A stretch of DNA of 64,000 nucleotides from a virus, in the IMG/VR virus record IMGVR_UViG_3300037010_002844, positions 64,001 through 128,000 of that record; one strand, written 5' to 3'. Positions 4,854 to 52,013 of the stretch are shown in pieces (position 1 is the first letter of the stretch; each line of letters starts with the position of its first letter). The notes under the pieces are model-generated. The model saw only the letters and a program-made list of their open reading frames with translations, was not told where the DNA came from and searched no databases. Position numbers and translations under genes: made by a program.

Positions 4854-4854
4854 G

Positions 4855-5394: not shown

Positions 5395-5509
5395 TTACTT
5401 CCTTCCAGATTACGTCTGGATCTTGACGGGCAAGATCAAATACAATCTTGGGAAATCAACATCTGTTACTACACGAAACTCTATCCCGCGTTACGCCATG
5501 CCGATTATC

Positions 5510-6267: not shown

Positions 6268-6344
6268 GACATGAAAGTACTTTAGTACGCCCTCGGTTTA
6301 CACTTAGGCGTGCACCCGCACGATGGAGGGAATAATTACCATGC

Positions 6345-11198: not shown

Positions 11199-11419
11199 GT
11201 GAGCAGGTCCTTCAACAGGTCTTCGATCGCTCCTGCGTTCGGTTCATCAAGCATTGCTTTAGCATACTCTTCTTCAATGTACTCGTCAGTCGGCTGGAGT
11301 TCAACCTTCGTTTCGCTTTTGCGTCGGTAACGTGCCGCGGCCCGTAACAGTTCGATCGGACTCAGACCCATGCGTTGGGCAATGTCATTCAGTGCGATTT
11401 CAAACGGCGGTCTTTTCAT
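11195..11419 (-). CDS. Small hypothetical protein (possible HTH) inside the intein-7 gap.
   Basis: 74 aa, with IALNDIAQRMGLSPIELLRAAARY. Overlaps the neighbouring genes at both ends. Confidence 0.4.
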   Translation of the reverse strand: MKRPPFEIALNDIAQRMGLSPIELLRAAARYRRKSETKVELQPTDEYIEEEYAKAMLDEPNAGAIEDLLKDLLT

Positions 11420-12449
11420 ACGCTTTTCCTATCCGATGAACGCCAGGTCGAGGATCTTTCAGGATCTCAAAAAGCTTTTTCAAGCAATCAGGTTCGAAGC
11501 GACCGCCATCCTTGTATGAGAACTGATCGTAAGAAATTCGAATGAGTGTCCAATCATGTTTAGTGATGTAATCATCAAGCATTGCATCCATGCACTTCAC
11601 TCGTTCAAAATTATCCTCGCCTTTAATACGTGCATTAAAATGGATGATTCCATCAAATTCAACATAAATGTGTCTTGATCGATCGGCAATGTCAACTTGC
11701 TTTCTTTTAGATTTGTTTGGAAAAGCAACTGACTTGACGACCTGATTATGAACAAAATCATAACCTTCAACGTTTTTCAACAAATCAAACAACGCTAATT
11801 CCGGAATGCTATGCCAAATAGCATGTGCAGCTTTTGTGCACTTTTCGTAGAACTCATCGGGGTTCAACTCACGCCAACGGGCCAGGCGCTCAGCACGTGC
11901 CTTGAGTATCTCAGGCCGGGTTGACGTTAGTCTTGCAACGTCTGATGAACGTTTACGGGCTTCAGGTCGTCGATTAAGTTCTCCCATTAGTTCAGAGCGA
12001 CGTTTCCTCTCGCCCGGATTGCTCGTGATGGCCTCACTGACCGCACGGCCCATCTTTTCCTTGTAGGCAGTCAAATCATCACCGCGTGCCTTCGCTCGTT
12101 TGAGCCAGGCGAAATTCTGCCCACGATGCTTGAAACGCGCTGTCGAGACTTTCGATGTGATTGCGGCAGTCGGGTACGCTTTCAGGTATTCTTCTTTGCT
12201 CATACCATGCGTCCCCGACAAGTGCTTTGCCAGTGCCTTACCCGTGAAGCCACAGACTTGGCATGTGACACTCTCACTGTCACCGAGTATGAATCCTTGG
12301 CACCTAGCTTGGTGTTTTTCGTAGGCCTTCAGGTAGACGAAGAGCCTGCTACATCGGTCACAACGATGCTGAGGCCCCGTTCGGCAATCATCCACAGGGG
12401 CAACATCTCGTTTGTCTCCTTCGTCCTGAACTTGTGATCCCACGTGCAC
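11400..12449 (-). mobile_element. Free-standing homing-endonuclease gene in the intein-7 gap (MucR-like zinc finger plus a DUF559/Vsr-like PD-(D/E)XK domain).
   Basis: CQVCGFTGKALAKHLSGTHGMSKEEYLKAYP resembles the Ros/MucR finger. The C-terminal SIPELALFDLL...QVDIADRSRHIYVEFDGIIH resembles the DUF559/Vsr-like nuclease core. It lies between N-intein 7 and C-intein 7. Confidence 0.65.
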
Positions 12450-13030
12450 TTTACCTTCTCTCCGGTCACCAACTCCACTTCTACCAAGTCTAGCTCACCG
12501 TGGTCGTGTTTTGCAACAACAGGGACGAGGATGTTTTTACCTGAATTCTCATCACGAGACATGACCAGGTCGCCGGGTTCGATGTGTTGAAGCTGCTTTG
12601 TCTCTTTGAACGTGCCGTCTGAAAAAAAGGTATTTACTGGTTCCGAAAAGTACAAACTTTTATTGAAGCCGTAGCCCGCGAAGTACAGAATCTTGTCGTA
12701 GAGGTTGTTGGCCACCTTCTCGGTATAACCGTTGGCGATGCAACCCTTGACGAACCCGTCACGGGTCTCTTGGGCTGCCTTCTTTGCCGCCTCACCGCCC
12801 GAGATGCTGCGCTTCATGATTGCGCGACGGACCTCGTCACACTTGTCCTTCGGGAAGCCGGCAGCCTTCTCGGCGAGTTCCATCACCTGTTCCTGAAAAA
12901 TTATGCAGTTATGCACGAGAAGGCCATTTGCGAAGAAGTTGTTGTTCTTCTTGACCTGGATGTCGTACACAGGCTGTGCAGGAACACGCTTGATCGCACG
13001 GATCTTGACGGGAACTACGTCAGGCATCAC
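12329..13030 (-). CDS. dnaE: DnaE fragment 7: C-intein 6, extein, N-intein 7.
   Basis: C-intein 6 at 12908-13030 ends PVYDIQVKKNNNFFANGLLVHN. The extein at 12659-12907 is CIIFQEQVMELAE...DEVRRAIMKRS...ILYFAGYGFNK. N-intein 7 at 12332-12658 is SLYFSEPVNTFFSDG...CTWDHKF. Confidence 0.85.
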   Translation of the reverse strand: MMPDVVPVKIRAIKRVPAQPVYDIQVKKNNNFFANGLLVHNCIIFQEQVMELAEKAAGFPKDKCDEVRRAIMKRSISGGEAAKKAAQETRDGFVKGCIANGYTEKVANNLYDKILYFAGYGFNKSLYFSEPVNTFFSDGTFKETKQLQHIEPGDLVMSRDENSGKNILVPVVAKHDHGELDLVEVELVTGEKVKCTWDHKFRTKETNEMLPLWMIAERGLSIVVTDVAGSSST

Positions 13031-13344
13031 TTACGCTCCGTTTCACGATGAGTCTGACAAACAATGTGTAATGACATTGAGCGCGACAAAGCATCACTGC
13101 CTAGAACGACTCGGCAAGGGTTGAGATTTTCCCCCACATGACGCATCCATTCTTGCAAAGCGTTGATCAATCGTTGGGCTTCGTTGAAACCCTCATGCGA
13201 GGGTGGAAACTGACAGCAACCTACCAAATCTCTAGTCCCAGGATCATATGCAATGATTCGCAAATTCCCATGAACGTTCATCTCTAGCGTTAGAGATCCA
13301 TAAACATCGTCATCGATCTCGCTAGTGTAAAGATCTGCGCTCAT
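13027..13344 (-). CDS. Hypothetical protein (cargo ORF in the intein-6 gap).
   Basis: 105-aa ORF with an ATGA-type overlap to fragment 7. No motif recognised. Confidence 0.45.
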   Translation of the reverse strand: MSADLYTSEIDDDVYGSLTLEMNVHGNLRIIAYDPGTRDLVGCCQFPPSHEGFNEAQRLINALQEWMRHVGENLNPCRVVLGSDALSRSMSLHIVCQTHRETERK

Positions 13345-13345
13345 A

Positions 13346-13591
13346 TCATTTTTCTTTCATGTTCAATGATGATGCGCAGAGTTGGCACACTGGTCCATCA
13401 ACACTCAAAACACGTTGACCATGGTATTCGAGCTCCATATCATTTCCGACCTCTTCATAAGCTCGAAATGTGTCGAACCAGTCGGCATACGTGAGATCAT
13501 CACGCTTTCCAAATGCCGTATGTGACTTCATCGTGTTGATAAAGTTCTTGAACGACGTAAGCAACTCCTCTTCAAAATCATCAATCTTCAT
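13346..13591 (-). CDS. Hypothetical protein (cargo ORF in the intein-6 gap).
   Basis: 81-aa ORF starting MKIDDFEEELLTSF. No nuclease motif. Confidence 0.45.
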   Translation of the reverse strand: MKIDDFEEELLTSFKNFINTMKSHTAFGKRDDLTYADWFDTFRAYEEVGNDMELEYHGQRVLSVDGPVCQLCASSLNMKEK

Positions 13592-13662
13592 GTCTAAATT
13601 GTCCTCAATTTGAGGTGATAGTTCAAGGCATCAGACTCCCAGACGCGGTACACCGTGAAGCC

Positions 13663-13842
13663 TCAAGTTCTTGTGGCAAGCGTCCATAATTGATCAAGCC
13701 TAAATTGCTTCTTCATCGCAGGTGTTAGTTCATGCTTCGCTGGGTTACTGTGCCAATAGTCGCCGTCGTACTCGATGATGAGGTTGAGTGATGGCACGAC
13801 GAAGTAGCCTGGTTTCAGTACTTCATTCCCAAAATCTCGTCT
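13663..13842 (-). pseudogene. Remnant of a Vsr-like homing endonuclease.
   Basis: My translation of a start-less open stretch is RRDFGNEVLKPGYFVVPSLNLIIEYDGDYWHSNPAKHELTPAMKKQFRLDQLWTLATRT*. The IEYDGDYWHS core matches AIECNG(V/L)YWHSE of the two intact endonucleases at 15352 and 17837. Confidence 0.6.
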
Positions 13843-14414
13843 TCAGACGTCAGTTCACCTGCTTGCACCCAACCACGAGGCGTCATGACAAGGTGATCTT
13901 CAGTCAAAGACAAAGTTTCTCCACCCTCCAGCTCAACCTCGATGATGTCACGTACGCCGTTTGAGGCGACAGCGACAACTTCGTCCATCTCGACGGTCTT
14001 CGTCATTTCATTGTATGACGGAAGCTTAGTTCCCACCATTCCTTGTTCAACGATTTGTCTAATGGGAACCTCACCTTGCTCAGTAAGGATATGTGTGTCA
14101 CCCGTCAAACACGAGTATGTCTTCTTCAGGATGTCGTTGACGCGGTGATCGCCCCACTCCAACTCCTTGCCGTCATTCTTCGCCTCCAAGTACAGTCGAT
14201 CGACTTTGGCGGCCAAGGGACCCGGGCGATAGATGCTGGTCAGCGTCGCGATGTCGATGATGCTCTTGGGCTTGCCTTTGACAAAGAGTCGCTGAGCGCC
14301 CTGGCCCGTGCAATTGTGAACAACGACGTCGTTAGCGACGAAATTATGATGATTTCGCACCTCGATGTCGTAGACGTGGCGCTTACCCACGCTGCGTGAT
14401 GACACAAGCTTCAA
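13815..14414 (-). CDS. dnaE: DnaE fragment 6: C-intein 5, extein, N-intein 6.
   Basis: C-intein 5 at 14313-14414 is MKLVSSRSVGKRHVYDIEVRNHHNFVANDVVVHN. The extein at 14112-14312 is CTGQGAQ...LTSIYRPGPLAAK...ILKKTYS. N-intein 6 at 13818-14111 is CLTGDTHILTEQG...LTEDHLVMTPRGW. Confidence 0.85.
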   Translation of the reverse strand: MKLVSSRSVGKRHVYDIEVRNHHNFVANDVVVHNCTGQGAQRLFVKGKPKSIIDIATLTSIYRPGPLAAKVDRLYLEAKNDGKELEWGDHRVNDILKKTYSCLTGDTHILTEQGEVPIRQIVEQGMVGTKLPSYNEMTKTVEMDEVVAVASNGVRDIIEVELEGGETLSLTEDHLVMTPRGWVQAGELTSEDEILGMKY

Positions 14415-14772
14415 GCGTCGTCTCCTTCTTTTCTAGCAACTGTAGGTCATATCCACTGACAAGTGCACACTTGAGCGTCGGATGCAACGTTACGAATGCG
14501 TCAAACTTCTCCCTAGCATCATCACGCCACCAGCCCTTGACTTCCACGTACACCCGCTTAAAGAGCTCCAACGTCGGTCATTGACGATGGAAGATCATGT
14601 ACGCCTCTCTTGTGAGCTGGATCCTGATCTCCTCCTCGCTGAAGCCCTCGTCCATGCAATGACGCCAGTTGTCATACAGGTCGACGACGCCATTCTTTCC
14701 GTTCCCGTTGCCCGCTGAGTGCAGAAAGTACAAAGGGGCGCTACGATGAGCGGAGCGCGTCCGTACAATCAC
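14383..14772 (-). pseudogene. T7 endonuclease I-like homing endonuclease remnant with an in-frame TGA (intein-5 gap).
   Basis: ORFs 14578..14772 and 14383..14571 are in the same frame and are separated only by TGA 14578-14580. VYVEVKGWWRDDAREKFDAFVTLHPTL resembles T7 endonuclease I FVETKGLWESDDRKKHLLIREQHPEL as I recall it. The upstream PD motif is not preserved. Confidence 0.55.
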
Positions 14773-14856
14773 ATGTTGCGGAGTCGTGGGCCTGTTGCGT
14801 CTCTGTAAGGCGACATGGCCACGGTCGCGGCGAAACCTGCGACCAAAACGCCCGCC

Positions 14857-15333
14857 TCACGTCAATCCACGAGCTTCGTAACCACTGCTAGACCCAATCA
14901 ACTCGTCGTCTTCGGTTAGGTGCTGTGCCTCAACCCACCCGCGATTCTTCGTCAAGATGGGATGATCAGCGGTGCAGACAAGCTTCTTGCCGTCGTCGAA
15001 CACGAGCTCGATGCACTCCTTGGGTCCTTGGTCGTAAACGACGTCGACGACTGATGTGGTGAACTGCTGCTTGACTTCATCGAAGACCGTCACCTCGTCA
15101 CCGACATGGACGTCCTTGATCAACTTGTACGAGTCATCGCCCATCAGCACTGCCGTGTCCTGGTCGACGCACTGGAAGATGCCTGCCCACTTGCCTTTCT
15201 CGTAGACCTCGTAAGGTTTGGGATCGGTGAAATCAATGACGGCCGGGTGCATGTGCTGCTCGAACCAGGTCTTGATGTCATTGAATGATACCGCATTTGT
15301 ATGTGCGTCAACGTTAGCAACGACTTTTGCCAT
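14857..15333 (-). CDS. dnaE: DnaE fragment 5: degenerate C-intein stub, extein, N-intein 5.
   Basis: MAKVVANVDAHTN is a decayed block-G-like stub. The extein at 15172-15294 is AVSF...DPKPYEVYEKGKWAGIFQ. N-intein 5 at 14860-15171 is CVDQDTAVLMGDD...CTADHPILTKNRGWVEAQHLTEDDEL. Confidence 0.8.
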   Translation of the reverse strand: MAKVVANVDAHTNAVSFNDIKTWFEQHMHPAVIDFTDPKPYEVYEKGKWAGIFQCVDQDTAVLMGDDSYKLIKDVHVGDEVTVFDEVKQQFTTSVVDVVYDQGPKECIELVFDDGKKLVCTADHPILTKNRGWVEAQHLTEDDELIGSSSGYEARGLT

Positions 15334-15351
15334 GTCTTTGTAAAGGTACTT

Positions 15352-17151
15352 TCACAGGTCCATAACGTACACCGCGTTGGAGCAACCAAAGATCTTAAAA
15401 AGCCTGTGTTCCATCGCCATCTCTTCTTGTGATGCGATCCCCGGAATCGCCCTGACAGCAAATCTATCGATACGATTTTGTCCGTCCGTCCACCAAAACC
15501 TAGGCTGCGTCATGTGATCAAATCTAAAACCAGATAGTTCATACGCCCGGCCAGTGCCACCCAACCTCATGTCACGGTATGTGATCATTTTTTGGTAACC
15601 ATGCTCACGTGACCAATCCCTGGCAGCGTTGATCAACCGCGACATGCCTCCAACGACGATGGTATCGCGGGCCGTTGAAACCCGCGCCAATTCAATTGTC
15701 TTAGATCCCCACTTAGTCTGCTGGTGCGGTTTTCGCAATGTCAATGCACAAATAATGTTTCCAGCAATGTCCTCTAGCCAGAACGAATGCGACGAAGGAG
15801 TGTTTCCATCGAGGTGATTGTTCGCCATGAACTGAGCGGTGATGGCTGGACGACCGCTGCGAAGATGTAGCTTTCGTGCCATCACGCGAGTAGCAAGACC
15901 AAGCTTTACCCTGATCATGCTTTTGATGATGTTTTTCTTTACATCATGGTGCCATTCATCGTCGAAGATATGTAGCAACGACACACCACGCTCAAGAGCG
16001 CGAGTCGACTTGTCTTGGTGATACGATGGTGGAGTACCGGTCGCCTCACTGTGCCAATAGACACCGTTGCACTCGATGGCAATCCTTCCGTTACCTGACA
16101 CGATGTCCAGCTCATAAGGCGCGATTGACTGTCTGTCGTTGGCGATGGCGTTCGAATCGAGCTTGACGAAGAAATCGAACACCTCACGATGCCAGCGAGA
16201 GAAATTAGCCGGGTAGCACGTTGAACACACCTTTCCCTTGTAAAGGACGTTAAAGGGAACAATATCAGGTACGTTACAACTGACGCATGTCACATGCACC
16301 GGTGTTGAGTATCCAGCAAACTCAAATTTTTCGATGTTCCACCTCGACCGCAGTGCATCAACTCGCCGTTCGACCTCTTCGAGAGACAACCGAAAAGGAG
16401 AGTTAGTGCCGTTCTCGATAAGGCGTTTTCTAGTCTCGATGATCGAACGTTTGATATCTTCAGAATTAGCGTTCCGAGACCAATGATTCAAGCGAACGCC
16501 TTCGCCGATCCGTTCTGATCGCCGTTTGATCCTATCGTCAGTTTCTGACGTCTGACCGTGCTGCGTCCAGTGTTTTTCTACTTGCCATTTTTCAGTCAAT
16601 GCTCGAGAGATGTTATGCGCAGCTCTTGTGATAGATTCATTATTTTCTTTAGTTTGTCCTGTTCTCCAGTGCCCGTGTTTTTTGATGAAATCACGACAAC
16701 CTTGTGCGGCCCTTCGAACCGATTCAGACGTTGTTTCTGACAGCCCCTTGTTCCATGCAGGCAATGATTTTGATTTCCGGCTAAGCGCACCTCTTACTTG
16801 AGAGTTCTTCTTGCTACAAACTCCACAGAGACGTTCATATCCCGTTTGAAAGGTCATGAACTTGACCGGCCCTGAACACTGAACGCACGGTCCAGGGTGC
16901 TCTCGAAAAAGAAGGTACGCAGCCTCCGCATTGAGCCCGTGCTTTTTAAGGAGATGTGCGCGGAGCGAATTTAGGCTAGCTTTTCGCAATGGATCATTGC
17001 ACTGTGGGCACCTCGAAGGACACGATGTCATCGCCGGGCCCGAGCTCCCTCGCAAGGATGGTGCCCCTGTTGCTGGTGACGATTCGTTGGTCGCCGTAGA
17101 CGCCTCGTGTCGTTCCATCGTCGAGTTGGATCTCAAACCACCCTCTTTCAT
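15352..17151 (-). mobile_element. Free-standing homing-endonuclease gene (zinc finger, NUMOD3-like repeats, Vsr-like nuclease, conserved C-terminal domain) at junction 4.
   Basis: Contains CPQCNDPL...HLLKKH, WNKGLSETTSESV and TGQTKENNESI repeats, and YELDIVSGNGRIAIECNGVYWHSE. The C-terminus is YRDMRLGGTGRAYELSGFRF...FWWTD...IFGCSNAVYVMDL. It is a paralog of 17837..19570. The true start is probably an internal Met (17118 or 17031), because the track start overlaps fragment 4. Confidence 0.75.
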
Positions 17152-17851
17152 GTCGTTCCTTTTTGATGATGAGCTCGATGGCGCGCTCGATGAGCCGCAT
17201 CGTTTCTAGACCTAGGAGGTCGTACTTGATGAACTCTCCGATCTTCTCAAGGTGTTTATAATTTACGCCCTCGACCCAAGGTGACTGTGGCTCGCGGACG
17301 CCGGCCTTGCCTTTGGACGTCACCAAAGGCATCTTGTTGGGCAAATCGTCTGCAATCAGCACACCACCCGCGTGACGACCGAGACTACGATTCTGCTTGA
17401 AGAGGATCTTGATCGACTCGGCGACGACCGGGTACTTCTCAATGAAGCCGCGAAACGACGGGCTGACCGGCTGCTTACACTCTGGGCTACAGCCCTGGCA
17501 GATGGACTTCGACTCCGGGCCCTTAGGAGCCCTGCAGTGGAAGGCCATGGCCTCATCGTAGGTCAAGACGAACAGATTCTTGTCGTCGCCTTCCTTCATC
17601 GTCGCCTTACGGACCTCGTCCTCGACGGTCCGCGTGGCAGCGTTGGTCTCCTCGAATGGGATGCCGTAGAACTTGCCGATATCCTTTACAAGCGTTTTTA
17701 GTTTGAAACAGTTATAATTGCTGATGGGAACGACGTTTTCCCACCCAAAAAAGTTTCGAAGTTCATCAAGAACCTCATCTCGCCTGGCAAGATCGGTGTT
17801 GTGAACAACGACGCTCTTGTTGGACGCCAAAAATGAATGAACGACCATCAC
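16994..17851 (-). CDS. dnaE: DnaE fragment 4: very short C-intein 3, palm/fingers extein, degenerate N-intein remnant.
   Basis: Starts MVVHSFLASNKSVVVHN (17798-17848, ATG at 17848). The extein is TDLARRDEVLDELRNFFGWENVV...SLGRHAGGVLI...IKYDLLGLETMRLIERA. The tail at 16997-17140 is WFEIQLDDGTTRGVYGDQRIVTSNRGTILARELGPGDDIVSFEVPTVQ. Confidence 0.85.
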   Translation of the reverse strand: MMVVHSFLASNKSVVVHNTDLARRDEVLDELRNFFGWENVVPISNYNCFKLKTLVKDIGKFYGIPFEETNAATRTVEDEVRKATMKEGDDKNLFVLTYDEAMAFHCRAPKGPESKSICQGCSPECKQPVSPSFRGFIEKYPVVAESIKILFKQNRSLGRHAGGVLIADDLPNKMPLVTSKGKAGVREPQSPWVEGVNYKHLEKIGEFIKYDLLGLETMRLIERAIELIIKKERHERGWFEIQLDDGTTRGVYGDQRIVTSNRGTILARELGPGDDIVSFEVPTVQ

Positions 17852-19570
17852 ATGAATCCTAACTCAACTACAGTTGAATTTACATGCGCTCGTTGTGGTC
17901 GAAACCACGAAACGCTACGAGCATTGAAGATCCACGAGGCACGACACAGGCGAGAAGACGCCAGGCCTCCCAAACAGGTGTCAACTTACGCGTGTCCGTG
18001 GTGTGAGGCGTCATATGACAGCGGGCGTAAGTTGACATTGCACTGCACAAAAACGCACCAAAAATCACCCGTCGTTGTGTATGAAACAAGGTACCCAGGG
18101 TGCAGGAAGACGTGCATCGATTGTTGCGACTGGGTCAGGTTCATCGATCAAGAAAAAGGATACCCCGAACGGTGTCCACGTTGTAGCCGAAAACACGCAT
18201 ACGCGTCCAAGGGCACCTCGTCATGGAACAAAGGCCTGACGAAAGACAATGACGAACGCATGTCAGCCAGTGCTGCAAACATGCGAGCTCACTACAAGGA
18301 ACACGGTCACCACAACTCCGACAAGACAAAGGAAAACAACGAAAGCCTTAAACAAAAGGCGGCAAAAATCAGCGACAGCCTGCGGAGGTATTATGCAACG
18401 CACAGCGGCTGGTCACTTGGCCTGACAAAGGATACGTCTAGCATCATTGAATCTCGCAGTAAGAAGATCAGCGCTTCGTTGAAAGGACGATTCTTTAGCG
18501 ACGTAACGCTTGAAAAAATGCGCAAGGCAAAGTTGCTGACGCACGACGAGGTACAAAAACGCCTCAAAGAAAAGCAGCTTAAACTCATTGACGAATATGT
18601 CGATACTGTCACCAAAGCGCGCATCGAATGCACGATATGTTCAACAATATTTGAGCGTTGCGTTGGCGCAGTGTTCAACAACGAGGCCAAGTGTCCCACC
18701 TGCTTTCCGCCTTGGTCAGACAAAACGAGCAGGTGGCAACAGGACGTCTACGCATTTATCCAGACGCTGGCACCTGACGCAGTCCTTAGCGATCGTAAGA
18801 CGCTCGGCGGAATGGAGCTCGACATACTCATTCCATCGCGCATGTTTGCCATCGAGTGCAATGGCCTATACTGGCACAGCGAGGCCGCCAATAGATTTGA
18901 GCACGATCACGCGGAAAAGAAGAGATTGCTGTCCCTCAAAGCCGGCGTATCGCTTTTCACGTTATTTGAGGATGAGTGGCGCGACAAACGACCGATAATC
19001 GAAAGCATGTTGCGCCATCGCCTTGGGTTTTCTACCAAAGTCGATGCGCGTAAGTTGAAAGCAGAACGCTGCGAGCCCGAAGAAGTTCGAGAATTCATCA
19101 ATCAGTGCCACCTCGACGGTCACGTGAGGGCCCAATTTGCCGTGCGATTGGTAACCTCATCGGGCGAAATCGTAGGCGCCTGCAGCCTTAGGTGGGCACG
19201 AAATGGGGCAGACAGAACGACGATTGAGATCGCTCGCCTGTGCTTCAAGCTTGGCACACATGTACGAGGCGGGGTGTCAAAATTGCTATCAAAGGCAAAA
19301 GCTATAGCAAGAGAAAACAATGCAGCGAGGTTGATGTCTTACTCAGACAATCGCTTGGGAGGAAACGGTTATGCCACCTCAGGCATGAAGTTCAACGGTA
19401 CCACAGTCGCTCGCTTCTGGTGGACTGACTTCATGCATCGTTACGACAGGTTCAAGTACCGAGCCAACAAGAAGCAAGGTCTAACAGAAAAACAGGTAGC
19501 GGAGGCTGCCGGCGTTTATCGCATCTATGGCTGTAGCAACTCTCGCTACGTCTTAGACGTCACAGCGTGA
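17837..19570 (+). mobile_element. Homing-endonuclease gene on the opposite strand inside the intein-3 gap (C2H2-like finger, NUMOD3-like repeats, Vsr-like nuclease, conserved C-terminal domain).
   Basis: Contains CARCGRNHETLRALKIHEARH, then WNKGLTKDNDERM and SDKTKENNESL and GLTKDTSSIIESRSKKIS, then MELDILIPSRMFAIECNGLYWHSE. The C-terminus is YSDNRLGGNGYATSGMKF...FWWTD...IYGCSNSRYVLDV. Its ATG at 17837 overlaps, head to head, the ATG at 17848 of fragment 4. Confidence 0.8.
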
Positions 19571-19872
19571 CGCTAATGTCATCGTCAAACTTTGAGGACG
19601 CATTTTCTTTGAGCCAGAAGATGGCGTCAATTGTGCGCTCGTCGGCGTCGGCGTCATCGCACGACGTAGCCCCATAGTATGGGGGCCAAATCGTGCTCAA
19701 ACCCTTTAACGCGCAGTTTGACCTGACAATCTTGAAATTCAGGATTTTCTGCAGCTCTCGTCTGAGCTATTCTTTCCAGGCCAGACACTATCACATCATC
19801 TGCTCGGCAGAATCGCCGTTGTCTGTAAGCTGCACCGCATCAACGTTGCTCGGACACGGTCCCAACTCCAGC

Positions 19873-20610
19873 TCAAATTTCATAGTTGCGCTCGCTGTGG
19901 TCTGTTCTTCTCTTAGACGCGCACCAATCGCTGCAAAAATTGTCTCCTTCGCCACACGCAAGGAACGTGCCAGGAATGACGCCCATGCAATAACCGACGT
20001 CATGTGATGGATCACCTCCACTTAGAATGGACGTATTGAACGGTACCACGTGGAATCTGTGATCGTCTTCAACAGTCAGGTCGACGTATCTAGCGTTGGA
20101 AGAGCCCCAACCACCGTGCTCGATCGATACGACCTCAACGCTGCCGCATGATGCCATCAATTCATCTCCGACCTTAAGGTCGCGGCAGTACACGATGACG
20201 CCGTCAGCTCTGACAAATTTGTGACCGGGCACCACCAAAATGTGGCCCAACGTACCATCATTGGCCCTAACTCTGACCCAGACAGCGTCCTCGAATGGCC
20301 GCAAATTTCTAGCATAGGTCGCAGTTACTGCGTGTGGCATTCCATCGCCTCCCAGGACGACGTCGCCGACAATGATGTCAACAGCTCGCTTATGAGTGCC
20401 GTCTGTCATGACGACAAGATGGTCCTCGTGGACGCAGTCGATATCAGGAGCACCAGAGTTATGTGTCAGCACCCAATCGCTATCGTTGTTGGACACCCAA
20501 AACGTATGCTGGCCTTCGACCTCGATGTCGATGAGTTCTACACTTTCATCGACAACCTCGATAGCTTCAATTTTGGCCGTGCTTGCTGATGAGATGTTGG
20601 GTTCCTGCAT
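19873..20610 (-). CDS. dnaE: DnaE fragment 3: C-intein 2, 7-aa extein, long N-intein 3.
   Basis: C-intein 2 at 20458-20610 ends ELIDIEVEGQHTFWVSNNDSDWVLTHN. The extein SGAPDID is at 20437-20457. N-intein 3 runs down from 20436 as CVHEDHLVVMTDG...VVPGHKF...ARYVDLTVEDDHRF (to about 20053). About 60 unrelated codons follow. Confidence 0.8.
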   Translation of the reverse strand: MQEPNISSASTAKIEAIEVVDESVELIDIEVEGQHTFWVSNNDSDWVLTHNSGAPDIDCVHEDHLVVMTDGTHKRAVDIIVGDVVLGGDGMPHAVTATYARNLRPFEDAVWVRVRANDGTLGHILVVPGHKFVRADGVIVYCRDLKVGDELMASCGSVEVVSIEHGGWGSSNARYVDLTVEDDHRFHVVPFNTSILSGGDPSHDVGYCMGVIPGTFLACGEGDNFCSDWCASKRRTDHSERNYEI

Positions 20611-21532
20611 AGTCCCTGTGCTCTAGATTGGCAATCGTATGGTACAAACCTTGTCGACGAAGTTCACCATAGAAGTCATTCATGTACACGACGTCGATGC
20701 GCTGACCAGACGCCACAACGACTTCCCGTGAACGTGCGTTTGAGTTAAGCAACTTTGAGAAACGCGATTTGCCTTCTCGCACACCTTTCAACTCCACGTA
20801 TCGGTCCTCATCACTGAACCAAAAGTCTGGAGTGTAACACTTCTCTTTGCCATCGATGACAACATGGAAAGACCTATGTTCATAGAATGGCATCTTACCG
20901 AGGTGCAAGCAATATCTGTAGTAGTCGGCTTCGAACGAGCTCTTGAAGTACGGGCTGTTTAGGATGTCGGAACGAAAACACGAGCGTCCGTTCACATGTG
21001 AAGCAACCATATCACGTGACTGTGCCTCGCGGGTGCACCGTTTGGAACAGAACCGCGGCACGTAGCTCTTCTTGGTGACGATCGGTTCGCTACAAACTTC
21101 GCATACCAACGTGTGGCGGTCAAACCTCGATGCAGCGAAACATTTGGGTGAACAGAACCTGCGATTGACGTTCTTCGTTGAGAAAGTGCCTAGACACTGT
21201 ACACATGTCAGTGTACGGAGCTCATTCTTTGTCAGCGCTTTCGCAGTGTACTTGTGCCTGCACGCATTCGAACATAGTTTTCTGTTGTTGTGACACTTTG
21301 GAACGTAGAACTCATCGCCGTACTCGACGCACGTCTTCACAAGCCTCGAGGGCATGGGAGCGTGTGACATCAGCTTCCTGTGAGCGACGGCACACTCATC
21401 AGTGCAGTACGGGCGATGGAGCCTACTACCAGAACCCTTGCAGTTGGGCTCATAGTTGAACTGAAACATAATACCACAGTGTTTACACTGTTTCTCAATG
21501 ATGCTCATAGTGGTACGTGTACAGCTCGTCAC
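20567..21532 (-). mobile_element. Free-standing homing-endonuclease gene in the intein-2 gap (four CxxC...FCSxxC zinc modules plus a T7 endonuclease I-like PD-(D/E)XK domain).
   Basis: The repeats are CKHCG...RPYCTDEC, CVEYG...RKLCSNAC, CVQCL...RRFCSPKC and CEVCS...PRFCSKRC. The C-terminal KCYTPDFWFSDEDRYVELKGVREGKSRFSKL matches the T7 endo I YTPDF...FVETKG core as recalled. Confidence 0.7.
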
Positions 21533-21992
21533 TCGTCGACAGCTCAGATGTATACTTCTTCACAGGTTGTCCATCAGGACCCACTGTCAACCACACATGA
21601 TTTTCAGAACACGTGAACGTAGTACCATTCACCTTCACGCGGTACGTCTTCTCATGTTTTGTGGTCATGGTGAACGTAACTTTACGGTGTGAGCCATCCT
21701 GTGAGACAACGCTGTCACCGACTTTCACGTCTCGAAGCGCGGACGACGAACCATCTGACATCAATACCTTTGTGTCTGGCGACAGACACCTGTGAACGCT
21801 AAGGAATCGCGCGAAAGGCAGGTCCCAGAACAACGGGTCCAAGTCGGTGATGTATAGGACGTAGGCGACCAGAGAGCCACCGCCCGAATTGTGGACTGCA
21901 ATACCTTCCACGTTGTAAGTGTGGCTGTTTTCCACACACAGGTCTACGACCTCACCCTTATACGGTACGACAGTCTTACTTCTGAGCTTCAT
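21495..21992 (-). CDS. dnaE: DnaE fragment 2: C-intein 1, 33-aa extein, N-intein 2.
   Basis: C-intein 1 at 21888-21992 is [35 protein letters not shown]. The extein at 21789-21887 is [33 protein letters not shown], matching the DnaE GSAAGSLVAY..ITDIDP..FERFLNPER region. N-intein 2 at 21498-21788 is [13 protein letters not shown]...CSENHVW. Confidence 0.85.
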
Positions 21993-22076
21993 GATATGCG
22001 TTCGCTCTCTTCATGTAAGCCTTGAGATCCCTGTCTAATAGACATTTGACGAGGATCAGGTAAACTTAGTTGAGTT

Positions 22077-23762
22077 TCATTCAACCTCGATTAGGTCATC
22101 ATCTTCAGTCAAGTGTTGTGCTTCAATCCACCCACGATTCTTCGTCAGAAACTTATGCTCCTTGGTGCACCTGATCTTCTTACCGTCATCAAACTCGAGT
22201 TCTAGCAGCTCCTCATCAACCTGATACCTGAAGATCTGAGTCACCATCTGATCAACACCATATGCATCCTTGATAACGTCGCCCACCTTGATGGTGCCAA
22301 TGGGAGCATGCATGCCGTCAGCCATTAGAACCCGCGTCTCAGGAACGAAACAACCGCGGGCTGGGCCGGTAAGGCACACATTGCGTGCCAGCTCCATGAT
22401 CTTCTGGTAGGAAATGAAGTAGTCAGAGTTTTTCATCACCTTAATGACGCCGAGTTCCTCCTTGAGGCGCGCGATATACTCTGGCTTGTCTTGAAGACCA
22501 CGCTTCACCATGCCCACCTTACAAAGCGAGATGAGGTGATTGAACGAGGTCGTGCCTTCGGGCACCAACAACCTCGTCGGAAACTTGGGCGAACGATCGG
22601 GTGGAATCTCCCCGATGACACTGTGTGCGATATCGTGAGTCCGCTCAATGGCGTCACAGACGACTTCATCGTCATACCAGTCGGTGCCTTCCTTGGAGCG
22701 CTGGTACTCATCCCACATCTGTTGGGCGTTCTTCGGATAGAGCTCACACTTCAGCTCATCCTTCGACTTCGGAATCGCGTCAGGATTGATCTCCTGGTAG
22801 TTCATCCAACCCAGGCGCTTGTAGAGCTCACGGTCCTTCCAACGATCGGGATTATAGTAGTGAGCATCGCCGGTGACGATCAGCTGCTTGTTGAGCCCAT
22901 TGCGACGAGCGAACTCCAGGATCGCGCGGTTGACGAGGTTCTGCGCCGGTAGGCGATTGAACTGCAGCTCGAGGAAGTAGTTTCCTTCGCCGACTGCATC
23001 GACCATGTGCTGGTAGGTATTGCCCACCGCGACAACGCATTTCTCGAGCAGCACAGGGTCACTGAGCAACCGTGCGTCGAGCTCGTCAAACTTGTACTGT
23101 TGGATTTCCTGGAATATGGAGTACGCCGGCATGCCGCCGATACAAGCGCTGCTGACGATGATGTCGCCGCCTTTGGCTGCCTCTTTGAGGACAGCATGGT
23201 CAATGCGCGGGAACTTGTAGAAGCCCTTCAAGAATCCCTTCGAACATGCTGCGAAGATCGCCAACAGGCCCTTCTGGTTCTTGGGCAGAATGACTAGGTG
23301 ATGCCGTCGGTTGACGGGATTGAAGTGTTTGGTCGATTTGGACTCTTCCTCGTTTTCGACAGTCAAGGCGTTGGACATCTCAATGTCCTCAGTCTCATCA
23401 TTTTCATCGATGGTGGCGATGATCTTGGTCTGCAGCTTTTCCTGCTCCTTAGCAAGCTTGGCCGCAACCCTCCTGTCTCCCTTCGCCTGCTCTGCGAGTT
23501 CGACGTCCTTCTTCCATTGCTCCAGGTCGGGATGGTAGTACGCCTCGACGCCGGGAATGTACTTGAACGACTTTCCCTTATTGGCCTTGGCCCACTCCTC
23601 GACCCACAGTTGAGCGTGGGCATAGGAGTTCATGTTCCCGTGCTCGGTGATGGCATGGCCATCGAGCCCGTTCTCCATGCACCACTTGAAGTGTTCATCG
23701 GGATAGCCCAAACCATCGAAGGGCGCATTACGAGAAGCCCGTGTGGTTGTGCAAACCGACAA
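22077..23762 (-). CDS. dnaE: DnaE fragment 1: PHP and N-terminal half, plus N-intein 1.
   Basis: Contains FDGLGYPDEHFKWCMENGLDGHAITEHGNMNSYAHAQ (PHP) and ends ...CLTGPARG, followed by N-intein 1 at 22080-22352 (CFVPETRVLMADG...CTKEHKFLTKNRGWIEAQHLTEDDDLIEVE*). The track start (TTG 23762) is an artefact. The real N-terminus is in another frame (see 23728..23820). Confidence 0.85.
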   Translation of the reverse strand: MSVCTTTRASRNAPFDGLGYPDEHFKWCMENGLDGHAITEHGNMNSYAHAQLWVEEWAKANKGKSFKYIPGVEAYYHPDLEQWKKDVELAEQAKGDRRVAAKLAKEQEKLQTKIIATIDENDETEDIEMSNALTVENEEESKSTKHFNPVNRRHHLVILPKNQKGLLAIFAACSKGFLKGFYKFPRIDHAVLKEAAKGGDIIVSSACIGGMPAYSIFQEIQQYKFDELDARLLSDPVLLEKCVVAVGNTYQHMVDAVGEGNYFLELQFNRLPAQNLVNRAILEFARRNGLNKQLIVTGDAHYYNPDRWKDRELYKRLGWMNYQEINPDAIPKSKDELKCELYPKNAQQMWDEYQRSKEGTDWYDDEVVCDAIERTHDIAHSVIGEIPPDRSPKFPTRLLVPEGTTSFNHLISLCKVGMVKRGLQDKPEYIARLKEELGVIKVMKNSDYFISYQKIMELARNVCLTGPARGCFVPETRVLMADGMHAPIGTIKVGDVIKDAYGVDQMVTQIFRYQVDEELLELEFDDGKKIRCTKEHKFLTKNRGWIEAQHLTEDDDLIEVE

Positions 23763-50600: not shown

Positions 50601-51560
50601 ATGCCTACCAAGATCGTCATACCGCCAGAGAACATCAATGAGATGCGTAATTTGTTCTGTTCTGGCGCCAGCATCCCAGAGCTCATGCTAAAGTACGGTC
50701 TCTCACGGAACAAGGTCACTGCTACCCTTCAAAACGCTCTGGGCGAGGAATACACGACATATGCTCAGAAGATCATCGCCGGTTGTGCTGTAAAATCTGC
50801 TGACAAACGGCGTGGGCGCAAACAAAACCGAACTCCGAAGTGGAACGCTAAAATCGCTGATGCAAATCGAGGAAAGAAACGATTAGAAGAGACAAAAGCT
50901 AAGATCAGCGAAGCATCACGCACACGCTTCGAGCGTGGCACCTGGTCGAAAGAAAAACACATTGAGGCTATGAAGAAGGCCGTACAAACCAAGCGTAAGA
51001 ACGGCTACTTTCAGTTTCATTCACAGCGTCATTCTGAGTAGACGAAGGAACACACACCGATGCGTGGTAAGAAAATGTCAGATGAGGCGTGGCAAAAGAT
51101 GCGTAAAGCAAAAACGCTTTTTTGAACTGGGTGGTGAGCCCTCGCACTTAGATCGCATCATTCCTGCACATGAATGTCAAAAACATAGTGAAAATACCAA
51201 GCGCATGTGTGCAAATGGCAAATTTTCATACGGCGACGGTTCTGTAATGCGTAGTAAGCTCGAAAAACGTATCTACGATCAAGCGCTCACCGTCTTTCCA
51301 GACGCTCAACACTCACGTTGGCTCACTGTCAATGACACCACGTACGTCTTCGACATCTTCATCCCATCGATCAAGACGTTCATCGAAGTCAATGGGAACT
51401 ATTGGCACCTTAACTCACGGATCTACGAGGCCACACACACCACGACGCATACCGTGATGTGATGGCTTCAGAGATCTGGGAACGAGACGCTGTAAAACGT
51501 CACGTCGCTGAATCTCAAGGCTATCGTGTCATCAATCTTCCACTGCAGCCTGACGTCCAT
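50601..51560 (+). pseudogene. Decayed free-standing homing endonuclease (NUMOD3 repeats plus a Vsr-like core).
   Basis: Frame 0 has NUMOD3-like GRKQNRTPKWNAKIADANRGKK and RLEETKAKISEASR, then an in-frame TAG at 51039-51041, then GKKMSDEAWQKMRKAK. A frame change at the T6 run 51118-51123 leads to SKLEKRIYDQ...VFDIFIPSIKTFIEVNGNYWHLN. A second frame change near the (CA)n at 51431-51450 leads to EIWERDAVKRHVAESQGYRVINL. Confidence 0.65.
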
Positions 51561-51563
51561 CCG

Positions 51564-52013
51564 TCACTGCCTCCCCGTGCTACCGAAGCCGCCCTGTCCG
51601 CGATCAGTCAACGATAGCTCTTCCGAGCCCTCGAAGACCGCCTGAATAACTGGCGCAATCACCAATTGGGCAATCCTGTCGCCTTTTCGAACATAGAAGT
51701 GAGTGTTCGAAGAATTGCGCAGGATGACCTTCACCTCGCCTCGGTAGTCAGAATCAATGGTTCCTGGTGAGTTCAACACGGAGATTCCATGCTTTGCAGC
51801 CAGACCTGACCGCGATCGAACCTGTCCCTCGTACCCAGGCGGAATTTCGAGGAACAATCCCGTCGAGATCAGTGCCTGGCCATGCGCCCTGACTTCCTTG
51901 TCCTCGTCAGCAATGATGTCACAGCCCGCCGCGCCGGCCGTTTGATAGGCCGGCGCATTGGGACCGCGAAACTTGATGGTGACCTTGGTGACGAAGTAGT
52001 CCTTGTCAGTCAT
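51564..52013 (-). CDS. dut: Trimeric dUTPase.
   Basis: AGAAGCDI, GQVRSRSGLAAKHGI, PGTIDSDYRGEV and GGFGSTG motifs. I placed the start at ATG 52013 (MTDKDYF), which overlaps the recA stop (ATGACTGA). Confidence 0.9.
   Translation of the reverse strand: MTDKDYFVTKVTIKFRGPNAPAYQTAGAAGCDIIADEDKEVRAHGQALISTGLFLEIPPGYEGQVRSRSGLAAKHGISVLNSPGTIDSDYRGEVKVILRNSSNTHFYVRKGDRIAQLVIAPVIQAVFEGSEELSLTDRGQGGFGSTGRQ

What the first reader, a model, noticed from the sequence alone, without database searches (positions are those of the whole stretch)
15352..19570. Two large paralogous endonucleases share an uncharacterised ~190-aa C-terminal domain
ORFs 15352..17151 (-) and 17837..19570 (+) share the same architecture. 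It consists of an N-terminal Cys/His finger, several WNKGL(T/S)..T and TKENNES repeats (NUMOD3-like), a Vsr-like core (ELDI......AIECNG.YWHSE), and then a long conserved tail. The tail reads ...ARKL.......F...NHLDG / CHLDG..., Y(R/S)D.RLGG.G.....SG(F/M).F, FWWTD, DRF, and I(F/Y)GCSN..YV(M/L)D(L/V). I cannot place that tail in any family from memory. They are inserted in opposite orientations at adjacent junctions of the same gene. A decayed copy of the nuclease core is at 13663-13842, and another decayed relative is at 50601-51560.
Basis: partly seen in the sequence, partly recalled or inferred. Interest (0 to 1): 0.6.

Follow-up and report, generated by a model that had tools for sequence, protein, structure and literature searches.

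The report
Hef-like homing endonucleases with Mom-type tail
The two large genes are selfish 'Hef-like' homing endonucleases lodged in a shattered phage DNA-polymerase gene, and their "unknown" tail is a known fold, a relative of the phage Mu DNA-modifying enzyme Mom, so the finding is a new member of a known family whose tail function has not been tested.

Summary
ORFs 15352..17151(-) (HE1) and 17837..19570(+) (HE2) are 32% identical over 568 aa (E 1e-83). They share one architecture: zinc fingers, NUMOD3-like repeats, a zinc ribbon, an EDxHD/Vsr-like nuclease and a ~180-aa tail. They flank one piece of a dnaE gene broken into eight ORFs.

The interpretation that the tail is uncharacterised does not hold. 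It is a GNAT-fold domain of the phage Mu Mom family. Evidence: PHROG 'Mom-like' E 1e-10; AlphaFold pLDDT 94; best Foldseek PDB match 8BV8 (Mu Mom); hhalign to Mom E 2.8e-5. The equivalents of Mom residues H58, R111, S124, D149, R151 and Y159 are present.

The whole architecture is the 'Hef-like homing endonuclease' family. The tail alone matches 259 phage records and 15,778 protein clusters. The nuclease-Mom fusion was described in print in 2021.

Thirteen related viral contigs lack both genes at these junctions, and four of them carry an uninterrupted dnaE, which fits mobility.

What the Mom-type domain does inside a homing endonuclease is untested. Its catalytic-type residues are conserved at least as well as the nuclease's. 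I therefore favour, at about 40%, a retained DNA-adenine modifying activity that marks the resident genome.

Verdict: new member of a known kind, modest interest.

The parts
15352..17151 (-). HE1: Hef-like (EDxHD) homing endonuclease ORF, 599 aa as the longest ORF. The start is uncertain: ATG 17151 has an AAGGAA-like site upstream, and ATG 17031 lies 7 codons before the first finger.
16807..17016 (-). HE1 N-terminal zinc-binding region. It holds a C2H2-type finger (C48, C51, H66, plus a second His, probably H71 by my reading of the sequence) and a CxxC...CxxC knuckle (C89, C92, C109, C112).
16507..16761 (-). HE1 NUMOD3-like repeats (AWNKGLSETT, QTKENNES, HWTQHGQTSETD).
15901..16200 (-). HE1 EDxHD/Vsr-like nuclease core (E347, D349, E360, H367, D398).
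15355..15900 (-). HE1 Mom-family GNAT domain (H446, E487, R490, S504, D527, R529, Y537, R560, R563).
17837..19570 (+). HE2: Hef-like (EDxHD) homing endonuclease ORF, 577 aa, on the strand opposite to dnaE.
17879..18184 (+). HE2 zinc-binding region. It holds an extra C2H2 finger (C17, C20, H33, H37), the family C2H2 finger (C53, C56, H69, H74) and a Cys4 knuckle (C93, C96, C113, C116).
18218..18481 (+). HE2 NUMOD3-like repeats (SWNKGLTKDND, KTKENNES, GWSLGLTKDTS).
18629..18703 (+). HE2 Cys4 zinc ribbon preceding the nuclease (C265, C268, C286, C289; at least 90% conserved in the family).
18725..19018 (+). HE2 EDxHD/Vsr-like nuclease core (E327, D329, E340, H347, D379).
19019..19567 (+).
19873..20610 (-). 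dnaE piece 3. It consists of the C-terminal part of intein 2, the 7-aa extein SGAPDID, and a long N-terminal part of intein 3 (blocks A, B, F).
16994..17851 (-). dnaE piece 4. It consists of an 18-aa intein-3 C fragment (..SVVVHN|T), the Pol III alpha extein, and a ~50-aa Hint-like tail without Cys1.
14857..15333 (-). dnaE piece 5. It consists of a 13-aa leader (MAKVVANVDAHTN), an extein, and the N part of intein 5.
13666..13842 (-). Remnant of an EDxHD nuclease core (LNLIIEYDGDYWHS) at the piece 6/7 junction. It has no tail.
50601..51617 (+). Tail-less EDxHD homing-endonuclease relic spread over three reading frames (ORFs 50601..51041, 51064..51462, 51459..51617), read here as frameshifted. 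It keeps a NUMOD3-like GKKRLEETKAKIS motif and the core FIEVNGNYWH.

Best explanation
HE1 and HE2 are two anciently diverged members of the Hef-like branch of the EDxHD (Vsr-like) homing-endonuclease family. Each is a free-standing selfish gene sitting inside an insertion that breaks a jumbo-phage dnaE.

HE2 lies inside intein 3, which interrupts the catalytic PDID|TD motif. HE1 lies inside an intein-like insertion in a KEG|KPH loop.

The N-terminal zinc fingers, NUMOD3-like repeats and zinc ribbon recognise a long DNA site. The EDxHD domain cuts alleles that lack the element, and recombinational repair then copies the element in. This is inferred from family membership and from empty-site alleles.

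The C-terminal ~180 aa is not a new domain. It is a GNAT-fold domain of the phage Mu Mom family, and it is the hallmark of Hef-like enzymes.

My sub-claim on its role, held at about 0.4, is that it keeps a Mom-type activity. It would flip out an adenine and transfer an acyl or aminoacyl group to N6, with aminoacyl-tRNA rather than acyl-CoA as the likely donor. This would act on DNA at or near the enzyme's own site. Already-resident phage DNA would then be refractory, while incoming or unmarked alleles are cut, in a single-chain restriction-modification-like logic.

Shown here: identity, fold, residue conservation, genomic placement and empty sites. Inferred: cleavage, homing and any modification chemistry.
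For: Paralogy and architecture:
- The two proteins are 32% identical over 568 aa, E 1e-83; the alignment is.
- Full length including the tail matches phrog_3339 'homing endonuclease', E 1e-59.
- 414 phage records match by tblastn, annotated Hef-like (PA5oct, Campylobacter phages, Lak phages).
- The tail alone matches 259 phage records.
- A Hef-like gene between nrdA and nrdB of a Tequatrovirus aligns over core plus tail, E 8e-33.

Nuclease:
- The family profile hits I-Bth0305I (3R3P), E 1.7e-5.
- YWH aligns to YW(H213A), and FEDEW to IEDDE.
- E327, D329, E340, H347 and D379 are 80-99% conserved.

Tail:
- AlphaFold pLDDT 93.9.
- The Foldseek top PDB hit is Mu Mom 8BV8, E 7e-9, TM 0.66-0.69.
- In BFVD the order of matches is Hef-like tails, then stand-alone Mom, then generic GNATs.
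- hhalign against Mu Mom gives E 2.8e-5.
- Equivalents of Mom H58, R111, S124, D149, R151 and Y159 are present in both proteins. Across 195 relatives they are conserved at 100, 100, 65, 84, 95 and 97%.
- Those residues are required for Mom activity (PMC7261163; PMC13219725).
- Among orthologues the tail is as conserved as the nuclease.
- 26 of 144 relatives lack the nuclease His or Asp yet keep all Mom-type residues.

Mobility:
- Thirteen related IMG/VR dnaE loci lack both genes at these junctions.
- Four of them carry an uninterrupted dnaE; in L005 it is a single 1311-aa ORF.
- A second phage contig keeps the HE1-like / piece 4 / HE2-like module.

Published precedent: Mom domains fused to REase-fold nucleases in jumbo phages (PMC7824862), and Hef placed in the EDxHD family (PMC3239194).
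Against: - No activity was or could be tested here.
- Neither protein reaches Pfam's gathering score for Mom: HE1 scores 12 bits against 27.1, and HE2 has no hit.
- Mom Y59 is L or I here, and the dimer residue W48 is not conserved.
- The S124 equivalent is Gly in 27% of relatives, and the T4-type Hef has Gly at the D149 position.
- Tail-less EDxHD enzymes such as I-Bth0305I cut DNA without it, so the tail is not needed for cleavage.
- From memory of Sandegren et al. 2005 (paper not held), Hef cleaved its own phage's DNA as well. That argues against simple self-protection.
- HE1's flanks lack canonical splicing nucleophiles, so that junction is not a textbook split intein.
Confidence: 0.8

Rival explanations
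1. The Mom-type tail is catalytically silent. It would serve only as a DNA-binding, base-flipping or dimerisation module that positions two nuclease domains for a double-strand break.
For: - Mu Mom is a tight dimer that binds dsDNA through a basic cleft (PMC13219725).
- Double-strand cleavage by a single-site nuclease needs two active sites.
- Y59 and W48 equivalents are lost. The GNAT pyrophosphate-loop position is L, F or V in most members.
- Some lineages have lost the D149 or S124 equivalents.
- Invariant Arg residues (R535, R538) sit in the insertion that contacts DNA in Mom models.
Against: - The residues Mom needs for chemistry rather than folding (R111, R151, H58, Y159 equivalents) are 95-100% conserved over 195 diverse sequences.
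- They persist in members that lost nuclease residues.
- Tail-less family members cleave DNA well.
Confidence: 0.3
2. The proteins are not homing elements. They would be phage-encoded restriction-modification-like weapons, as proposed for jumbo phages. The Mom domain would protect phage DNA globally, and the nuclease would attack host or superinfecting DNA.
For: - This is stated as the predicted function of Mom-REase fusions in jumbo phages (PMC7824862).
- The source contigs reach 309 kb.
- Several copies per genome are common: 5 in PA5oct and 10-12 in Campylobacter phages.
Against: - Both genes sit precisely inside insertions that interrupt an essential gene. One is inside an intein at the polymerase catalytic motif.
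- Relatives carry empty sites.
- Remnants of related nucleases litter other junctions of the same gene.
- Long modular DNA-binding regions (zinc fingers plus NUMOD3-like repeats) point to long, rare target sites rather than frequent restriction sites.
- T4-type Hef occupies the classic mobE locus between nrdA and nrdB.
Confidence: 0.15
3. The tail is an ordinary acetyl-CoA-dependent GNAT that acetylates a protein or small molecule, for example a host factor. It would be unrelated to DNA.
For: - The family profile hits GCN5 at E 3.7e-6, and the invariant E464 aligns to the GCN5 catalytic Glu.
- One source names a relative 'GNAT family N-acetyltransferase'.
Against: - The Mom-specific residues that are not general GNAT features (R111 and R151 equivalents) are nearly invariant.
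- The Q/RxxGxG/A CoA loop is degenerate.
- In the viral structure library, stand-alone Mom proteins rank directly after Hef-like tails and ahead of generic GNATs.
- The domain is fused to a DNA-binding nuclease in most of the relatives examined: 156 of 195 cover both nuclease core and tail.
Confidence: 0.05
4. One reading: the tail is a previously unrecognised domain family.
For: Pfam leaves most family members without any hit on the tail.
Against: PHROGs, NCBIfam, hhalign, Foldseek and published comparative genomics all place it in the Mom/GNAT family.
Confidence: 0.02

Closest known systems
Hef-like homing endonucleases of phages (prototype Hef of T-even phage U5; F-LimIII/VII/VIII/X; Campylobacter phage Hef proteins; PA5oct)
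   Same: - Full-length profile match including the tail: phrog_3339, E 1e-59.
- Same domain order: nuclease core followed by a Mom-type domain.
- Free-standing genes next to or inside essential replication genes.
- BFVD structural neighbours have TM 0.8-0.87.
   Different: - Only 25-32% identical to cultured-phage members.
- Extra N-terminal C2H2 fingers.
- Located inside intein or intein-like insertions of dnaE rather than between genes.
- HE2 is antisense to its host gene.
I-Bth0305I and the EDxHD / Vsr-like homing endonucleases of 'fractured genes' (Dassa 2009; Taylor 2011; PDB 3R3P)
   Same: - Same nuclease core and catalytic residues.
- N-terminal NUMOD-type DNA-binding region followed by the nuclease.
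- Same genomic logic: host gene broken, with the endonuclease gene between the split-intein halves. dnaE is among the published hosts.
   Different: - I-Bth0305I (266 aa) ends with the nuclease and has no GNAT domain.
- The published fractured genes keep host and endonuclease in one orientation with a canonical split point.
- Here one endonuclease is inverted, intein 3 is split between blocks F and G, and one gene carries seven breaks.
Phage Mu Mom (PDB 8BV8), the Gly-tRNA-dependent N6-adenine DNA-modifying GNAT
   Same: - GNAT fold, and the best Foldseek PDB match.
- hhalign E 2.8e-5.
- H58, R111, S124, D149, R151 and Y159 equivalents are present.
- An insertion lies between the last two strands, where Mom has its essential HTH-like insertion.
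   Different: - About 16-20% identity.
- Y59 becomes L or I, and W48 is not conserved.
- The insertion is shorter and unrelated in sequence.
- The domain is fused to a nuclease instead of standing alone with Com regulation.
- Below the Pfam gathering score.
- Activity is unknown.
Mom-REase fusions of jumbo phages (Iyer et al. 2021, PMC7824862)
   Same: Same fusion. That paper counts five 'momylating enzymes' in PA5oct. This fits the five places my full-length query matched in that record, of which the one inspected is annotated a Hef-like homing endonuclease.
   Different: That paper reads them as restriction-modification-like defence. Here the placement inside gene-breaking insertions, with empty sites in relatives, favours homing.

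Membership tests
EDxHD (Vsr-like) / Hef-like homing endonucleases | Vsr-like nuclease core related to I-Bth0305I | tested here: met
   Profile of 61 relatives against the PDB: 3R3P at E 1.7e-5. HE2 core alone: 3R3P is the top hit. PADLOC HEase model hits both proteins.
EDxHD (Vsr-like) / Hef-like homing endonucleases | Composite E-D-x-H-D catalytic residues | tested here: met
   HE2 has E327, D329, E340, H347, D379. HE1 has E347, D349, E360, H367, D398. D329, E340, H347 and D379 are invariant, and E327 is at least 90% conserved, in 61 relatives. H347 aligns to the H213A position of 3R3P.
EDxHD (Vsr-like) / Hef-like homing endonucleases | N-terminal NUMOD-type modular DNA-binding region | tested here: inconclusive
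   HE1 and HE2 give no PF07460 hit at E<=1. Six of 61 relatives hit NUMOD3 (best 2e-13), and those hits map onto HE2 aa 136-208 and HE1 aa 139-212.
EDxHD (Vsr-like) / Hef-like homing endonucleases | Full-length similarity to annotated Hef-like proteins, including the C-terminal domain | tested here: met
   phrog_3339 covers aa 72-574 of HE2 and positions 55-534 of a 536-position profile. A Tequatrovirus Hef-like gene at nrdA/nrdB aligns at E 8e-33 over core plus tail.
EDxHD (Vsr-like) / Hef-like homing endonucleases | Presence/absence polymorphism at a defined site in a conserved host gene | tested here: met
   Thirteen IMG/VR relatives of dnaE lack both genes at these junctions. dnaE is uninterrupted in L005, L008, L011 and L017, and the exteins join as ...GAPDID|TDLA... 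and ...KEG|KPH....
EDxHD (Vsr-like) / Hef-like homing endonucleases | Site-specific double-strand cleavage and homing | not testable with these tools
   Needs enzyme assays and phage crosses.
Mom family (GNAT superfamily, PF25680) | GNAT fold | tested here: met
Mom family (GNAT superfamily, PF25680) | Mom is the nearest characterised relative | tested here: inconclusive
Mom family (GNAT superfamily, PF25680) | Curated profile threshold (Pfam gathering score 27.1 bits) | tested here: not met
   HE1 scores 12.0 bits and HE2 has no hit. PHROG 1384 'Mom-like' gives 1e-10 and 2e-6. Some relatives pass, for example P0282 at 28.9 bits. The tail is therefore a sister subfamily, not a core Pfam member.
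Mom family (GNAT superfamily, PF25680) | Residues essential or important for momylation: R111, S124, R151; H58, D149, Y159 | tested here: met
   HE2 has R467, S481, R506, H425, D504, Y512, and the same six are present in HE1. Family conservation is 100, 65, 95, 100, 84 and 97%. Their roles in Mom come from PMC7261163 and PMC13219725.
Mom family (GNAT superfamily, PF25680) | Y59 (iron and cofactor residue) and W48 (dimer interface) | tested here: not met
   The Y59 position is L or I in all relatives. W48 aligns to Glu in HE2.
Mom family (GNAT superfamily, PF25680) | Essential insertion between the last two strands (Mom residues 175-209) | tested here: inconclusive
   A ~30-aa segment with invariant R535, R538 and F539 lies between strands at the same place in the model. 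It shows no sequence similarity to Mom's insertion.
Mom family (GNAT superfamily, PF25680) | tRNA-dependent N6-adenine modification of dsDNA | not testable with these tools
   Needs LC-MS of DNA nucleosides.
Fractured genes (split intein plus free-standing endonuclease gene) | Host gene halves with split-intein halves flanking the endonuclease gene in one locus | tested here: met
   This applies to HE2. Piece 3 carries Hint blocks A, B and F (PF07591, 1e-8), and piece 4 starts ..SVVVHN|T. Differences: the endonuclease gene is antisense, and the C fragment is only 18 aa.
Fractured genes (split intein plus free-standing endonuclease gene) | Canonical splicing nucleophiles at both ends of the flanking intein | tested here: not met
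   This applies to HE1. The upstream fragment begins ..G|WFEIQLDDG with no Cys, Ser or Ala at position 1, and has no Pfam Hint hit. The downstream fragment ends ..DAHTN|A, so the +1 residue is Ala.

The most novel reading that the evidence does not exclude
The Mom-type domain of Hef-like homing endonucleases is an active, probably aminoacyl-tRNA-dependent, DNA-adenine modifying enzyme. It would mark the element's own target on resident DNA. These very common selfish genes would then be single-chain 'cut-or-mark' systems that carry their own immunity. This would make an uncharacterised clade of more than 10,000 protein clusters into DNA hypermodification enzymes.
Probability: 0.3. Interest if true: 0.65.

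Novelty: new member of a known kind. Interest (0 to 1): 0.3.

Why it matters
As filed, the finding is explained. The tail is a Mom-type GNAT domain, and the proteins are Hef-like homing endonucleases, a family annotated in hundreds of phage genomes.

What remains open is general rather than specific to this locus. Nobody has shown what a Mom-type domain does inside a homing endonuclease. Meanwhile the 2026 demonstration that Mom uses Gly-tRNA to modify DNA makes the question sharper.

This locus is a convenient test bed for three reasons:
- It holds two diverged copies.
- Their insertion points are known to the residue.
- Natural empty-site alleles are available from related phages.

Target DNAs for cleavage and modification assays can therefore be synthesised directly.

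Tried and rejected
- Nucleotide search of the 4.2-kb region against 50,697 phage records found nothing.
- Exact-sequence look-up of the 577-aa HE2 found nothing, because the public gene call is the 436-aa form.
- The first word-indexed protein search with the single tail gave only 2 hits. A small alignment was needed to reach 53.
- Single-sequence PDB search was dominated by zinc-finger hits. GCN5 and 3R3P appeared only at E 0.5-0.8, and a 61-sequence profile made both significant.
- The promoter/terminator scan of 14.8-20.7 kb found no more sites than shuffled controls, so it gives no information on how the antisense HE2 is expressed.
- PADLOC gave only a generic homing-endonuclease model and no defence system.
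- The original Hef paper (PMC1275590) and Iyer et al. 2009 (PMC2995806) are not held. Statements about Hef cleaving its own DNA rest on my memory.
- Literature searches for Hef-like plus acetyltransferase found no experimental study of the fused domain. Searches for Mom plus endonuclease plus fused found none either.
- I considered a recent local duplication and rejected it. Each copy has relatives elsewhere at 50-70% identity, against 34% to each other.
- I considered that the tail might be degenerate and rejected it on conservation.

Full report

Yes. ORFs 15352..17151(-) (HE1, 599 aa) and 17837..19570(+) (HE2, 577 aa) are in the ORF table. They align collinearly at 32% identity over 568 aa, E 1e-83.

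A 61-sequence alignment of full-length relatives shows which parts are under selection:
- a C2H2 finger (HE2 C53, C56, H69, H74);
- a Cys4 knuckle (C93, C96, C113, C116);
- the WNKGL unit;
- a Cys4 ribbon (C265, C268, C286, C289);
- the nuclease residues;
- a dense set of invariant positions in the tail.

HE2 has one extra N-terminal C2H2 finger.

The 'NUMOD3-like' label is right by homology only. HE1 and HE2 do not hit PF07460. NUMOD3 hits in relatives map onto HE2 aa 136-208.

Both decayed relatives are significant with a family HMM scored on the six-frame translation of the window. These are 13666..13842(-) at E 5e-5 and 50974..51459(+) at E 1.3e-5. Both match only the nuclease part of the model.

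**2. What are the neighbours?**

The minus strand from 23762 down to 10068 carries a Pol III alpha (dnaE) gene in eight ORFs. Pfam places PHP, DNA_pol3_alpha, finger and HHH_6 domains in order, with Hint/intein signatures at the ends of the pieces. HE2 lies between pieces 3 and 4, antisense to dnaE. HE1 lies between pieces 4 and 5.

The rest of the window is a phage replication module:
- ribonucleotide reductase with an in-frame intein;
- DnaB-type helicase;
- RecA/UvsX-type recombinase;
- family A polymerase fragment;
- probable dUTPase and 5'-3' exonuclease, both identified by my reading of the translations and not searched.

An identical copy of HE2 occurs in JGI metagenome 3300036715, and that protein cluster is seen on contigs of up to 309 kb. 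The source is therefore most likely a jumbo phage.

**3. What is the nuclease?**

A profile of the family hits the crystal structure of I-Bth0305I (3R3P) at E 1.7e-5. In the pairwise alignment, AIECNGLYWHS matches AIEVNGVYWAS, where the Ala is the H213A mutation of the crystal construct. FEDEW matches IEDDE (construct described in PMC3239194).

The E, D, E, H and D positions are 80-99% conserved in 195 relatives. This is the EDxHD family first found in 'fractured genes', where dnaE was among the hosts (PMC2677866). Taylor et al. added Hef-type phage endonucleases to it.

**4. What is the tail?**

It is a GNAT-fold domain of the Mom family. The evidence comes from several independent methods.
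- Sequence profiles: PHROG 1384 'Mom-like DNA modification protein' gives 1e-10 for HE2 and 2e-6 for HE1. NCBIfam XF1762_fam gives about 4e-7. Pfam gives only weak hits to Acetyltransf_1 and Mom.
- Structure: an AlphaFold model built on 41 sequences has pLDDT 93.9.
- Foldseek against the PDB: the best matches are the two chains of 8BV8, phage Mu Mom S124A (E 7e-9, TM 0.66-0.69), followed by ordinary GNATs.
- Predicted viral structures: Hef-type endonucleases come first (TM 0.8-0.87), then stand-alone Mom, then generic GNATs.
- hhalign of the tail family against Mu Mom: E 2.8e-5.

The hhalign alignment pairs the following residues (Mom, 241-aa numbering; HE2 numbering):

| Mom | HE2 |
|---|---|
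| H58 | H425 |
| R111 | R467 |
| S124 | S481 |
| D149 | D504 |
| R151 | R506 |
| Y159 | Y512 |

These are the residues shown by mutagenesis to be essential or important for Mom (PMC7261163; PMC13219725). Both HE1 and HE2 have all six. Across 195 relatives they are conserved at 100, 100, 65, 84, 95 and 97%.

There are also differences from Mom:
- Y59 is L or I.
- The dimer residue W48 is not kept.
- The GxG/A position of the CoA loop is mostly bulky.
- Neither protein reaches Pfam's gathering score.

I therefore file the tail as a sister subfamily of Mom within the GNAT superfamily, not as a core Mom orthologue.

**5. Is the combination known?**

Yes.
- The full length including the tail matches phrog_3339 'homing endonuclease' end to end.
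- tblastn finds 414 phage records with the whole protein and 259 with the tail alone. The annotations read 'Hef-like homing endonuclease', 'homing endonuclease', and in some Acinetobacter phages 'putative nuclease/acetyltransferase protein'.
- A Tequatrovirus carries such a gene between nrdA and nrdB. Reviews describe phage U5's hef as cleaving nrdB, like mobE. HE2 aligns to this protein over core plus tail at E 8e-33.
- An exhaustive HMM search finds 15,778 cluster representatives with the tail at E<=1e-3, and 10,024 at E<=1e-10. Most top hits are 450-650 aa with the domain at the C terminus.
- Iyer et al. [quoted passage not shown] They count five in PA5oct. My search found five places in that same record, and the one inspected is annotated Hef-like.

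**6. Are these copies mobile elements?**

The evidence fits.
- Thirteen related dnaE loci from IMG/VR share 57-81% identity in piece 4. None has an HE1- or HE2-type gene at these junctions.
- L005, L008, L011 and L017 carry an uninterrupted dnaE. In L005 it is a single 1311-aa ORF.
- Alignment to that allele fixes the insertion points. Intein 3, which hosts HE2, splits ...GAPDID|TDLA... From my knowledge of Pol III alpha, this is the catalytic aspartate motif. The HE1-bearing insertion sits in a variable ...KEG|KPH... loop.
- Other relatives carry different, tail-less EDxHD ORFs at other junctions. This dnaE lineage is therefore a recurrent target.
- A Logan contig keeps the HE1-like (62.5%) / piece 4 (73%) / HE2-like (53%) module intact.

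HE1 and HE2 are old paralogues, not a local duplication. Each has relatives at 50-70% identity elsewhere, against 34% to each other.

**7. How does it most likely work?**

Several steps are inferred from family membership. The zinc fingers, NUMOD3-like repeats and ribbon would read a long site. The EDxHD domain would cut element-free alleles. Repair would then copy the element.

The tail is not needed for cleavage in this family, because I-Bth0305I lacks it. Three observations nonetheless point to a selected function of its own, most simply a retained Mom-type reaction on DNA:
- It is as conserved as the nuclease among orthologues. In the HE1 lineage the tail is 68-70% identical against 55-60% for the core.
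- Its Mom-type catalytic residues are nearly invariant.
- 26 of 144 relatives lack the nuclease His or Asp while keeping every Mom-type residue.

Mom is now known to use Gly-tRNA(Gly). The CoA loop here is degenerate, so a tRNA-borne donor is plausible. The role I favour, at about 0.4, is marking of resident DNA at or near the target, which would give time-ordered immunity as in restriction-modification.

The main rival, at about 0.3, is a purely structural role in DNA binding or dimerisation. Points in its favour:
- the lost Y59 and W48 equivalents;
- lineages with Gly at the S124 or D149 positions;
- my recollection that Hef cut its own phage's DNA (source not available).

**8. Verdict**

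The locus is a new, divergent member pair of a known, widespread family. The residual interest is the untested biochemistry of the Mom-type domain in homing endonucleases. This locus offers defined targets for testing it.

Noticed in passing
window 10068-23762 (- strand): dnaE is broken into eight ORFs (seven junctions), with endonuclease genes or their remnants at most junctions. Related phages carry the same gene uninterrupted (1311 aa in L005) or with different subsets of insertions. This is an extreme case of the 'fractured gene' arrangement.
   Followed up: partly
window 19873-20043 and 17798-17851 (- strand): Intein 3 appears to be split between blocks F and G. Piece 3 carries blocks A, B and F (..YVDLTVEDDHRFHV) plus a 57-aa unrelated tail. 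Piece 4 begins with only 18 intein residues (MMVVHSFLASNKSVVVHN|T). I know of no natural split intein with so short a C fragment. The intein sits inside the PDID|TD motif of the polymerase.
   Followed up: partly
window 16994-17160 and 15295-15333 (- strand): The insertion that hosts HE1 has Hint-like sequence (WFEIQLDDGTTRG...GDDIVSF) but no Cys/Ser/Ala at position 1. It ends ..DAHTN|A with Ala at +1. Canonical protein splicing looks impossible there. The two dnaE pieces may assemble non-covalently, or this junction may be defective.
   Followed up: partly
L003 (Logan SRR14234030 contig, 23.8 kb) 4205-8418: A related phage keeps the HE1-like / dnaE piece 4 / HE2-like module. No other dnaE piece is detectable within 4 kb on one side or 10 kb on the other; there are only many small ORFs. 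The pieces of dnaE may be dispersed in that genome.
   Followed up: partly
window 17837-17851: HE2 (+) and dnaE piece 4 (-) start back to back and overlap by 12-15 bp in divergent orientation. No promoter-like signal stands out. Transcription of the downstream dnaE pieces must run antisense through the whole HE2 gene.
   Followed up: partly
window 20567-21532 (-) and 11400-12449 (-): There are two further, unrelated junction endonucleases. HE3 is a Cys-rich repeat protein with a weak phage endonuclease I / resolvase-like C terminus. HE4 has a ROS/MucR zinc finger plus a tail-less EDxHD core. An HE4-like gene (35% identity) sits at the same junction in L010.
   Followed up: partly
window 14383-14571 (-): A 62-aa ORF (..VYVEVKGWWRDDAREKF..) lies between dnaE pieces 5 and 6. 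It looks like the tail end of a PD-(D/E)xK-type nuclease and is possibly another decayed junction endonuclease.
   Followed up: no
window 44405-48046 (-): The ribonucleotide reductase large subunit (1213 aa) carries an in-frame intein of about 350 aa (aa ~305-653), large enough to hold an endonuclease domain.
   Followed up: partly
relatives P0014, P0018, P0019, P0021, P0022, P0024, P0025 and others (about 300 aa): One subgroup of relatives has a short N-terminal domain that aligns to the nuclease core but lacks the catalytic His. It keeps every Mom-type residue, has Glu at the D149 position, and several members pass Pfam's Mom model. These may be Mom-type enzymes with a dead or different nuclease-like domain.
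   Followed up: partly
L002 (JGI 3300036715 contig) gene calls: Public gene calls truncate both endonucleases (436 aa and 501 aa) and so cut off the conserved zinc-finger region. Automated annotation of this family probably often misses the N-terminal DNA-binding modules.
   Followed up: partly
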